Source: the human T2T-CHM13v2.0 reference genome, Homo sapiens
Assembly (NCBI GenBank): GCA_009914755.4
Contig: CP086569.2
Location: 1,728,001-1,792,000, forward strand
Direction of reading: 5' to 3'
DNA: 64,000 nt
In this document: piece by piece, positions 57,620 to 58,319 of the stretch
Layout: each line of letters begins with the position of its first letter
How positions within the stretch are numbered: the first letter of the stretch is position 1
The notes under the pieces: model-generated
The model's input: the letters and a program-made list of their open reading frames with translations, nothing else
Told to the model about the DNA's origin: nothing
The model's database searches: none
Translations under genes and position numbers: made by a program

Positions 57620-58319
57620 GGCCAGGCATGGTGGCTCATGCCTGTCATCCCAGCACTTTGGGAGGCTGAGGCAGGGAGATCACTTGAGATCAGGAGTTCA
57701 AGACCAGCCTGGCCAACATGGTGAAACCCCATCTCTACTAAAAATACAATAATTAGCCCTGGCGTGGTGGCTCACGCCTATAATCCCAGCACTTTGGGAG
57801 GCCAAGGCAGGTGGATCACCTGAGGTCGGGAGTTCGAGACCAGCCTGGCCAACATGGTGAAACCCCATCTCTACTAAAAATACAAAAATTAGCCTGGGCA
57901 TGGTGGCTTACGCCTGTCATCCCAGCACTTTGGGAGGCCGAGGTGGGCGGATCACCGGAGGTCAGGAGTTCGAGACCAGCCTGGCCAACATGGTGAAACC
58001 CCATCTCTACTAAAAATATAAAAATTAGCCCGGGCATGGTGGCTCATGCCTATAATCCCAGCACATCGGGAGGCCAAGCAGATGGATCACCTGAGGTTGG
58101 GAGTTCGAGACCAGCCTGGCCAACATGGTGGCCCTTCTTTACTAAAAATACAAAAATTAGCCGGGTGTGGTAGCACGTGCCTGTAATCCCAGCTACTCGG
58201 GAGGCTGAGGCCAGAGAATCGCTTGAACCTGGGAGGCAGAGGTTGCAGTGAGCTGAGATCATGCCACTGCACTCCAGCCTGGGAGACAGAGCAAGACTCT
58301 GTCTCAAAAAAAAAAAAAA
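57620..58319 (+). mobile_element. Alu with its left monomer (plus A-rich linker) tandemly amplified about 5 times (period about 137 bp), then a single right monomer and poly-A
   Basis: ggccaggcatggtggctcatgcctgtcatcccagcactttgggagg...ctactaaaaatacaa(t/a)aattagcc restarts at about 57620, 57758, 57895, 58031 and 58161; right arm 58161-58305; poly-A to 58319. Confidence 0.9.

What the first reader, a model, noticed from the sequence alone, without database searches (positions are those of the whole stretch)
57620..58319. Alu with a 5-copy tandem array of its left monomer
A normal Alu has one left and one right monomer. Here the left monomer plus the A-rich linker (about 137 bp, ending ...ctactaaaaatacaaaaattagcc) restarts five times in a row. 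A single right monomer and poly-A follow. The copies differ from one another by a few percent, so the amplification is not very recent. Monomer-level tandem amplification of Alu is uncommon. It produces an approx. 700-bp array that can misalign in replication or recombination and, if transcribed, pair with the many inverted Alus nearby.
Basis: seen in the sequence. Interest (0 to 1): 0.55.

Follow-up and report, generated by a model that had tools for sequence, protein, structure and literature searches.

The report
Old Alu with four left monomers
This is an old Alu repeat whose first half was copied head-to-tail to four copies (not five) by local DNA misalignment; more than 80 human loci of this kind are already catalogued, so it is a genuine but ordinary curiosity.

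Summary
The repeat is real and sits at the stated coordinates (57620-58319, + strand), but it has four left-monomer units, not five. The units (U1-U4) are 136, 136, 136 and 131 bp. One right monomer (58160-58305) and an A14 tail follow. The units are 82-90% identical to each other, not "a few percent" apart.

No poly-A or target-site duplication separates the units. All three internal junctions share the same unusual form (TTA|GCC[C/T]). Shared non-CpG substitutions pair U1 with U3 and U2 with U4. Together these indicate amplification in place inside one AluS element in at least two steps, not independent insertions.

The kind is known. Ahmed & Liang 2012 (PMC3389668) list more than 80 human loci with 115-148 bp Alu left-monomer tandem repeats at ≥95% unit identity, including arrays of 4.5, 5.4 and 17.5 copies. 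This array (87% matches) is an older member that falls below their cut-off. The same window holds another L-L-R Alu 920 bp upstream and a partial left-monomer duplication.

I found no evidence of function. Age and copy-number polymorphism could not be tested because no primate or long-read assemblies were reachable. Interest is low.

The parts
57620..57755 (+). U1: left monomer plus A-rich linker (Alu consensus positions 1-136). This is the true 5' end of the element (GGCC...). The B box is mutated (GAGTTCAAGACC) and all 9 CpGs are lost.
   Evidence: 89.7% identity to AluSx left arm. Rfam Metazoa_SRP sub-threshold hit 57621-57737, 57.7 bits, E=9e-14. Boxes.
57756..57891 (+). U2: second left monomer plus linker. 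It starts GCCC instead of GGCC. The A box (TGGCTCACGCC) and B box (GAGTTCGAGACC) are intact.
   Evidence: 93.4% to AluSx left arm. Rfam hit 57756-57873, E=1.3e-11. Shares 25A, 73G and 57T with U4.
57892..58027 (+). U3: third left monomer plus linker. It starts GCCT. The B box is intact.
   Evidence: 93.4% to AluSx left arm. Rfam hit 57892-58009, 60.2 bits, E=1.8e-14. Shares 27C with U1.
58028..58158 (+). U4: fourth left monomer plus linker, 131 bp. It has 1-nt and 3-nt deletions and 9 private non-CpG substitutions. The B box is intact.
   Evidence: 85.2% to AluSx left arm. Rfam hit 58028-58140, E=4.4e-9. Its best match among all 57 other left monomers in the window is U2, 89.6% against 85.8% for the next best.
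58160..58305 (+). The single right monomer, carrying the right-arm-specific insert.
   Evidence: 90.4% to AluSx right arm; 11 of 15 differences are at CpG. CAGCTACTCGGGAGG and GGTTGCAGTGAGC each occur once. Rfam hit 58160-58307, E=3.3e-13.
58306..58319 (+). 3' poly-A tail (A14). This is the only A run of 6 or more in the whole element.
58367..58371 (+). First T run of 4 or more downstream (TTTTT). It is the nearest possible Pol III stop for any transcript started in the array. This is inference only.
   Evidence: no T4 run inside 57620-58319.
57592..57598 (+). Weak TSD candidate AAATTCA, matching 58317-58323. It lies 21 bp from the Alu 5' end, so it is not convincing.

Best explanation
One AluS-type SINE inserted here once. 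Later, at the DNA level, its 136-bp left monomer plus A-rich linker was duplicated in place. The likely cause is misaligned exchange (unequal crossing-over, gene conversion or replication slippage) between the nearly identical first 15-50 nt of left and right monomers or of neighbouring units. This happened in at least two rounds: L-R became L-L-R, the two units (types A and B) diverged, and a second event then produced the A-B-A-B order seen today (U1~U3, U2~U4). Since then the array has decayed neutrally, with CpG loss, point changes and small deletions. It appears to have no function.

Shown directly: the anatomy, the exact phasing, the absence of poly-A or TSD between units, the shared junction form, and the shared derived substitutions.

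Inferred: the recombination mechanism, the number of steps, and an age of tens of millions of years.
For: - Phasing: period 136, 4.3 copies, spacings 136/136/136/131. Each unit runs from consensus position 1 to the end of the linker and straight into the next unit.
- No separate insertions: there is no A run of 6 or more and no T4 run inside the array.
- Shared junction: all three internal junctions read TTA|GCC(C/T). This G2->C change is absent from U1, which is the real 5' end.
- Shared non-CpG changes: 25A and 73G in U2+U4, and 27C in U1+U3. No non-CpG site supports 12|34 or 14|23.
- Chance test: under a star tree only 74 of 200,000 simulations gave 3 or more informative non-CpG sites all on one split. 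Two parallel U2/U4 changes have P=0.003.
- All-site four-point sums also favour 13|24: 23.6 against 28.0 and 28.6.
- U4's best match in the whole window is U2.
- Order of events: at positions 72-73, U2 has TCG and U4 has TTG, against consensus TCA. The shared A>G created a CpG that then decayed only in U4.
- Same process nearby: the L-L-R Alu at 56284-56699 has a second unit that starts right-monomer-like (GGTAGCACATGCC) and continues left-monomer-like. Many catalogued unit consensi have the same chimeric start. This is the signature of left/right misaligned exchange.
- Subfamily: all five monomers fit AluS better than AluY or AluJ.
Against: - The A-B-A-B signal rests on three non-CpG sites, two of them only 2 bp apart, so a single conversion patch could explain both. 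One CpG site (position 20) conflicts.
- The simplest right-start/left-start pairing model predicts that the U2->U3 junction should look like the canonical linker->right-monomer junction (period 135). It looks like the other internal junctions instead.
- In U2-U4 the first bases diagnostic for a right-monomer origin are ambiguous: position 10 T could be CpG decay, and GGCTCA is left-type.
- U4 has 9 private non-CpG changes against 0 in its sister U2 (p=0.004), which a simple neutral clock does not explain.
- There is no clean TSD.
- No orthologous or long-read sequence could be obtained, so timing and stepwise growth are not independently checked.
Confidence: 0.8

Rival explanations
1. One-step origin at insertion. 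The L1 reverse transcriptase repeatedly jumped back from the 5' end of the left monomer to the linker of the same or another Alu RNA during target-primed reverse transcription. Alternatively, the element is a copy of a source Alu that already had four left monomers.
For: Ahmed & Liang argue that initiation of TE-derived tandem repeats may be linked to retrotransposition (PMC3389668). The non-CpG divergence of units from the consensus (about 3-4% for U1-U3) is not clearly larger than half the distance between sister units, so the amplification could be nearly as old as the insertion. No non-CpG change is shared by all four units.
Against: A single template copied four times predicts a star tree, and the 13|24 structure is unlikely under it (74/200,000). 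The shared G2->C junction and the A-B-A-B order are more simply explained by copying of existing DNA units. The catalogued arrays belong to many different subfamilies and loci, which indicates independent local events rather than a mobile multi-monomer family.
Confidence: 0.12
2. Independent insertions: several free left monomers (FLAM-like) or truncated Alus landed next to each other or inside each other's A-rich linker.
For: Alus do insert into A-rich linkers and tails. The window has a clear case at 23845-24447, where an AluY sits inside an AluS linker with TSD AATCACA(G/A)AAATT.
Against: Each insertion would bring its own poly-A tail and TSD, and would give L-L-R-R or L-R-L-R strings. Here there is exact 136-bp phasing, only the normal linker between units, one poly-A, one right monomer, an identical unusual junction three times, and shared private substitutions. 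Target-primed reverse transcription does not produce 3'-truncated Alus (established knowledge).
Confidence: 0.02
3. Assembly artefact: a normal Alu was expanded by mis-assembly of repeat reads.
For: Only the 5' flank plus about 40 bp of U1 is independently assembled in Logan short-read contigs. ORFs that cross the internal junctions are not on record, and the U2/U3 junction was not found in two contig collections.
Against: The units differ by 10-18% with unit-specific indels. A collapse or expansion artefact would produce near-identical copies. The absence from short-read assemblies is expected, because those contigs break inside every Alu.
Confidence: 0.02
4. Exapted element: the four A/B-box sets and the nuclear-receptor half-sites of the left monomer act together as a Pol III/TFIIIC or enhancer platform, and the array is maintained by selection.
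For: B boxes are intact in U2-U4 and the A box is intact in U2. There is no T4 run inside the array, and a T5 run lies 48 bp past the tail.
Against: The units decay like neutral DNA: 4-9 of 9 CpGs are lost per unit, U4 carries deletions, and U1's B box is mutated. No expression, binding or conservation data were available.
Confidence: 0.03

Closest known systems
Alu left-monomer tandem repeats in the catalogue of TE-derived tandem repeats (Ahmed & Liang 2012, PMC3389668, Suppl. Table 3, clusters 6 and 7; concept first treated by Jurka & Gentles 2006, Gene 365:21, as cited there)
   Same: The unit is the Alu left monomer plus linker with a period of 133-148 bp (here 136). It is arranged head-to-tail inside one Alu and followed by the right arm. 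Copy number falls in the catalogued range: chr13 136x3.49, chr19 141x4.5, chr7 135x5.38, chr6 134x17.5. Growth by local duplication of units is the authors' conclusion too.
   Different: Unit identity is about 87% (TRF), below their >=95% cut-off, so this locus would not be in their list. It is an older, more decayed example. It also shows a two-unit (A-B-A-B) substructure that the catalogue does not describe.
Canonical dimeric AluS element
   Same: It has 7SL-derived monomers, A and B boxes, an A5TACA5-6 linker, a right arm with its insert, and a poly-A tail. Best identity is to the AluS consensus.
   Different: The architecture is L-L-L-L-R instead of L-R, and the length is 700 bp instead of about 300 bp. 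There is no clean TSD.
L-L-R 'three-monomer' Alu in the same window (56284-56699, minus strand)
   Same: The left monomer is duplicated head-to-tail with only the linker between copies.
   Different: It has only two left units. Its second unit is visibly chimeric (right-type start, left-type body), which pins the crossover point. In the four-unit array the crossover point is not resolvable.
Nested or tandem Alu insertions into A-rich regions of older Alus (described by El-Sawy & Deininger 2005, cited from memory; window example 23845-24447)
   Same: Both produce adjacent left monomers in a monomer-level annotation.
   Different: Nested insertions give L-L-R-R with a poly-A tail and TSD around the inner element. 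The array has neither.
Higher-order repeat structure of satellites such as alpha satellite (analogy only)
   Same: Alternate units are more closely related than neighbours at informative sites, which implies duplication of a multi-unit block.
   Different: There are only four units, and overall lag-272 identity is not higher than lag-136 identity. There is no homogenisation and no centromeric context.

Membership tests
Alu (7SL-derived primate SINE), AluS group | Monomers derived from the 7SL RNA Alu domain | tested here: met
   Five consecutive Metazoa_SRP (RF00017) matches on the + strand, 41.6-60.2 bits, E 4e-9 to 2e-14. All are below the gathering score of 70, as expected for monomers.
Alu (7SL-derived primate SINE), AluS group | Left monomer with internal Pol III A and B boxes, then the A5TACA5-6 linker | tested here: met
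   Four A-box-like sites, four B-box-like sites (three exact GAGTTCGAGACC) and four linkers.
Alu (7SL-derived primate SINE), AluS group | Right monomer with the extra insert, and a 3' poly-A tail | tested here: met
   One right monomer at 58160-58305, 90.4% to the AluSx right arm; A14 at 58306-58319.
Alu (7SL-derived primate SINE), AluS group | Dimeric L-R architecture of about 300 bp | tested here: not met
   L-L-L-L-R, 700 bp.
Alu (7SL-derived primate SINE), AluS group | Flanking target-site duplication | tested here: inconclusive
   Only AAATTCA matches, 21 bp from the 5' end, or a gapped AAA..CATCT.
Alu (7SL-derived primate SINE), AluS group | Subfamily-diagnostic sequence closer to S than to J or Y | tested here: met
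   Every unit and the right arm score highest against AluSx, for example U2 93.4 against 86.9 (Y) and 86.8 (Jo).
Alu-derived tandem repeat (TE-derived minisatellite/satellite; Jurka & Gentles 2006; Ahmed & Liang 2012) | Two or more head-to-tail copies of a unit that is part of an Alu | tested here: met
   TRF period 136, 4.3 copies, score 838.
Alu-derived tandem repeat (TE-derived minisatellite/satellite; Jurka & Gentles 2006; Ahmed & Liang 2012) | Unit corresponds to the left monomer plus linker (clusters 6/7: period 115-148, TE positions about 2-22 to 131-156) | tested here: met
   Units align to consensus positions 1-136. Compare the table rows.
Alu-derived tandem repeat (TE-derived minisatellite/satellite; Jurka & Gentles 2006; Ahmed & Liang 2012) | Catalogue threshold of >=95% identity among units | tested here: not met
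   87% matches; 82-90% pairwise. This is a catalogue cut-off, not a biological criterion.
Alu-derived tandem repeat (TE-derived minisatellite/satellite; Jurka & Gentles 2006; Ahmed & Liang 2012) | Units are each other's closest relatives (local duplication, not transposed copies) | tested here: inconclusive
   Within the window, U4's best match is U2 (rank 1 of 55). Other pairs rank 3-8 of 55, behind near-consensus Alus. A whole-genome comparison was not possible.
Alu-derived tandem repeat (TE-derived minisatellite/satellite; Jurka & Gentles 2006; Ahmed & Liang 2012) | Short direct repeats bounding the duplicated unit (Haber-Louis / Jurka-Gentles model) | tested here: met
   The starts of the left and right monomers share GCCGGGCG(Y)GGTGGC, so the 136-bp unit is bounded by a direct repeat of about 15 nt in any Alu (consensus alignment).
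Free left Alu monomer (FLAM) insertions | Each monomer has its own A-tail and TSD | tested here: not met
   No A run of 6 or more between units, and no flanking repeats around single units.
Nested Alu-in-Alu insertion | The inner element is complete (L-R-polyA) and bracketed by a TSD, giving L-L-R-R | tested here: not met
   Only one right monomer and one poly-A. Contrast with 23845-24447.

The most novel reading that the evidence does not exclude
The most novel reading not excluded is that this stretch is a local hotspot for Alu-internal left/right misalignment. Two left-monomer-amplified Alus lie 920 bp apart in opposite orientation (L-L-R at 56284-56699 on the minus strand, and L-L-L-L-R at 57620-58319 on the plus strand). 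More inverted Alus lie 246-420 bp downstream, and a partial left-monomer duplication sits elsewhere in the window. Closely spaced inverted Alus might stall forks or form hairpins that provoke template switching inside Alus. On this reading the array could still vary in copy number among people.
Probability: 0.07. Interest if true: 0.35.

Novelty: new member of a known kind. Interest (0 to 1): 0.12.

Why it matters
It matters little. The locus is a clean, dissectable example of a SINE turning into a short tandem array, with a readable order of events: a shared junction, an A-B-A-B pattern, and a CpG that was created and then decayed. It also shows that catalogues requiring >=95% unit identity miss the older arrays. 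In practice, a 700-bp array with 83-90% self-similarity surrounded by inverted Alus is a plausible site for alignment errors, copy-number variation or Alu-mediated rearrangement. Nothing here shows that any of this happens, and nothing suggests a new kind of element or function.

Tried and rejected
- **Rfam at gathering thresholds, whole window:** 0 hits. Only the relaxed search was informative. Its sub-threshold microRNA-family hits (mir-1268, mir-1285, mir-3135, mir-619) overlap the Alu monomers. I read them as families that are themselves Alu-derived (background knowledge, not tested here), not as genes.
- **Search for exons to identify the locus and fetch orthologues:** stop-to-stop ORFs outside Alus are all low-complexity or repeat translations. 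There is no CpG island.
- **Orthologue or independent-assembly retrieval via exact ORF look-up:**
  - The flank ORF 56865-57056 is in 18 Logan contigs, all under 2 kb. The six retrieved cover 56672 to 57642-57659, so they reach at most about 40 bp into U1.
  - The 3' flank ORF and three array-spanning ORFs are not on record.
  - The flank ORF's 90% cluster has a single member, so there are no variants to follow into other primates.
- **Exact scans for the locus-specific U2/U3 junction:** 0 hits in metagenome contigs and 0 in genome contigs.
- **Literature searches:** "Alu trimer/tetramer" returned only aluminium chemistry. PMC3592446 and PMC4712675 concern whole-Alu tandems and Alu exonisation, not monomer arrays.
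- **Hypotheses rejected:** independent FLAM or truncated insertions, nested insertion, and assembly artefact (see the rival explanations).
- **Overall lag-272 identity as a test for higher-order structure:** not informative. It gave 79% against 83% at lag 136, and it is confounded by U4's indels. The site-wise and four-point tests were used instead.

Full report
**What is in the sequence**

The interval 57620-58319 (+ strand) is a head-to-tail repeat.
- Tandem Repeats Finder reports period 136, 4.3 copies, 87% matches and score 838 for 57625-58205.
- The repeat finder reports start-to-start spacings of 136, 136, 136 and 131.
- One right monomer (58160-58305) and an A14 tail (58306-58319) follow.

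Marker counts agree with four plus one.
- The linker motif, the left-specific CAGCACTTTGGGAGG, the A box and the B box each occur four times.
- The right-specific CAGCTACTCGGGAGG and the right-arm insert core each occur once.

Rfam gives an independent check. Searched at a relaxed threshold, it finds five consecutive sub-threshold 7SL (Metazoa_SRP) matches on the + strand: four of about 113-118 nt and one of 148 nt. The stated 700 bp fits four copies, not five.

The units are 81.6-90.4% identical to each other, not a few percent apart. Identity is 83% at lag 136 against 24-36% at neighbouring lags.

**One element, amplified in place**

- Nothing but the normal A5TACA5 linker separates the units. 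The only A run of 6 or more is the terminal tail, and there is no T4 run inside.
- The three internal junctions all read TTA|GCC(C/T). This is one base different from the canonical 5' end that U1 retains (GGCC). It also differs from the canonical linker-to-right-monomer junction seen at U4->R. A junction this idiosyncratic, seen three times, was most simply made once and then copied.
- Independent insertions of free or truncated monomers would each bring a poly-A tail and a target-site duplication (TSD). The window contains such a nested case for comparison: an AluY inside the linker of an older Alu at 23845-24447, with TSD AATCACA(G/A)AAATT, giving L-L-R-R. The array looks nothing like it.

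**Order of events**

- With the consensus as outgroup, the non-CpG changes shared by exactly two units are 25A and 73G (U2+U4) and 27C (U1+U3). No non-CpG site supports the other two pairings. One CpG site supports the same pairing (57T) and one conflicts (position 20).
- Under a star tree with the observed numbers of substitutions, 74 of 200,000 simulations gave three or more informative non-CpG sites all on one split. Two parallel U2/U4 hits have P=0.003.
- Four-point sums on all sites also favour 13|24: 23.6 against 28.0 and 28.6.
- U4's best match among all 57 other left monomers of the window is U2, 89.6% against 85.8% for the next best.
- At positions 72-73 the shared A>G created a CpG that is intact in U2 (TCG) and decayed in U4 (TTG). 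The substitution therefore preceded the U2/U4 split.
- The array thus has an A-B-A-B substructure. The simplest history is L-R to L-L-R, then divergence of the two units, then a second event that doubled the pair.
- Caveats: positions 25 and 27 are 2 bp apart and could be one conversion tract, and overall lag-272 identity is not higher than lag-136 identity.

**Mechanism (inferred)**

- The first 15-50 nt of the left and right monomers are near-identical, so any Alu carries a built-in direct repeat 135-136 bp apart.
- Misaligned exchange or slippage between these repeats yields L-L-R, with a second unit that starts right-type and continues left-type.
- Exactly that chimera is visible 920 bp upstream, in the L-L-R Alu at 56284-56699 (minus strand): GGTAGCACATGCC followed by CAGCACTTTAGGAGG.
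- It is also visible in many unit consensi of the published catalogue: GTGGCACATGCC...CAGCACTTTGGGAGG.
- In the present array the crossover point is not resolvable, because the units are left-type from position 13 on.

**Age**

- All monomers fit AluS better than AluY or AluJ.
- The right arm differs from the consensus at 15 of 147 aligned columns, 11 of them CpG.
- The left units have lost 4-9 of their 9 CpGs.
- Sister units differ at 6-9 non-CpG sites out of about 118. At roughly 1e-9 substitutions per site per year (my background figure, not computed here), the last duplication would be tens of millions of years old and not much younger than the insertion.
- This could not be checked against orthologues.

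**Comparison with what is known**

[quoted passage not shown] Their criteria were units over 20 bp and at least 95% unit identity.
- They credit Jurka & Gentles 2006 with the first treatment of Alu-derived minisatellites.
- They conclude that arrays grow by local duplication of units.
- Clusters 6 and 7 of their Supplementary Table 3 are Alu left-monomer arrays with periods of 109-148 bp, more than 80 loci in the parts I read.
- Most have 2.2-2.5 copies, which is L-L-R. Larger examples are chr13 136x3.49, chr16 134x3.43, chr1 134x3.62, chr19 141x4.5, chr7 135x5.38 and chr6 134x17.5.
- About 0.24% of AluS copies carry some tandem repeat at that stringency, and 8% of those from older AluS subfamilies exceed three units.

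The present array is the same kind of object, near the upper end of the usual copy-number range. It is old enough (87% matches) to fall below their cut-off. In this window a monomer-level annotation finds 44 canonical L-R strings, one L-L-L-L-R, one true L-L-R, one partial left-monomer duplication (17955-18327), one nested L-L-R-R and several L-R-R strings. So extra monomers are not rare locally.

**Function**

I found none.
- B boxes are intact in U2-U4 and the A box is intact in U2. A T5 run lies 48 bp past the tail, so Pol III transcripts are conceivable.
- Inverted Alu arms 81-90% complementary lie 246-2272 nt away, so double-stranded RNA is conceivable if the region is transcribed.
- But the units decay like neutral DNA, and no expression or binding data were available.

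**What could not be done**

- No exon or RNA gene identifies the locus.
- Logan short-read contigs confirm the 5' flank and the first 40 bp of U1 at 98.7-99.9% identity, but they break inside Alus.
- Array-spanning ORFs and the U2/U3 junction are not on record in the collections reachable here.
- Orthologue dating and copy-number polymorphism therefore remain untested.

**Unexplained**

- U4 has 9 private non-CpG changes plus two deletions, against 0 in its sister U2 (p=0.004).
- U1 has lost all its CpGs while U2-U4 keep 3-5.
- The U2->U3 junction has the internal form rather than the linker-to-right-monomer form.
- There is no clean TSD.

**Verdict**

The object is an older member of a known, catalogued class, and interest is low.

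Noticed in passing
window 56284-56699 (minus strand): A true three-monomer L-L-R Alu lies 920 bp upstream of the array in the opposite orientation. Its second unit is chimeric, with a right-monomer-like start (GGTAGCACATGCC) and a left-monomer body. This is the footprint of left/right misaligned exchange. It sits at the head of a run of three further Alus (55690-56699).
   Followed up: partly
window 17955-18327 (minus strand): A partial left-monomer duplication. Consensus positions 6-147 are followed directly by a restart at about position 51, then the right arm and poly-A. There is no poly-A between the pieces.
   Followed up: partly
window 23845-24447 (minus strand): A textbook nested insertion. 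An AluY-like element sits in the A-rich linker of an older AluS, bracketed by AATCACA(G/A)AAATT, giving L-L-R-R.
   Followed up: yes
window 58561-59034 (minus strand); also 3633-4075 and 7590-8042: L-R-R strings. At 58561-59034 a lone right arm, a T24 run (58729-52) and a full Alu give a TRF period-175 signal (1.9 copies, 90%). This lies only 246 bp downstream of the array and is inverted relative to it.
   Followed up: no
window 18372-19661: A long minisatellite. The 430-aa ORF artefact repeats a 28-residue block about 14 times, which suggests a period of about 84 bp.
   Followed up: no
window 41250-42870, 11600-12740, 24980-25840, 4500-5190: Large CT/GA-rich low-complexity blocks that give spurious ORFs of up to 539 aa in several frames on both strands.
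   Followed up: no
window 35330-36410 and 26380-26980: Two further simple or cryptic repeat blocks. One translates as His/Ile/Thr runs (CAT/CAC-rich) and the other is a TG/CA-rich block.
   Followed up: no
whole window: Very high Alu density: 30% of bases, and about 60 full or partial elements in 64 kb. There are long same-orientation runs: mostly minus in 1-34 kb, plus in 38-53 kb, and minus again in 53-57 kb. No exon-like ORF, no CpG island, and no Rfam hit at gathering thresholds.
   Followed up: partly
window 56672-57659 compared with Logan contigs L001-L006: Independent short-read contigs match at 98.7-99.9% identity with 0-1 mismatch and 1-2 gaps. I did not localise the gaps. The T21 run at 56718-56738 is the obvious candidate for length variation.
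   Followed up: no
window 58028-58158 (U4): U4 has 9 private non-CpG substitutions and two deletions, against none in its sister unit U2 (p=0.004). The changes are partly clustered (positions 38-56 and 105-116), which suggests a conversion patch or error-prone repair rather than clock-like decay.
   Followed up: partly
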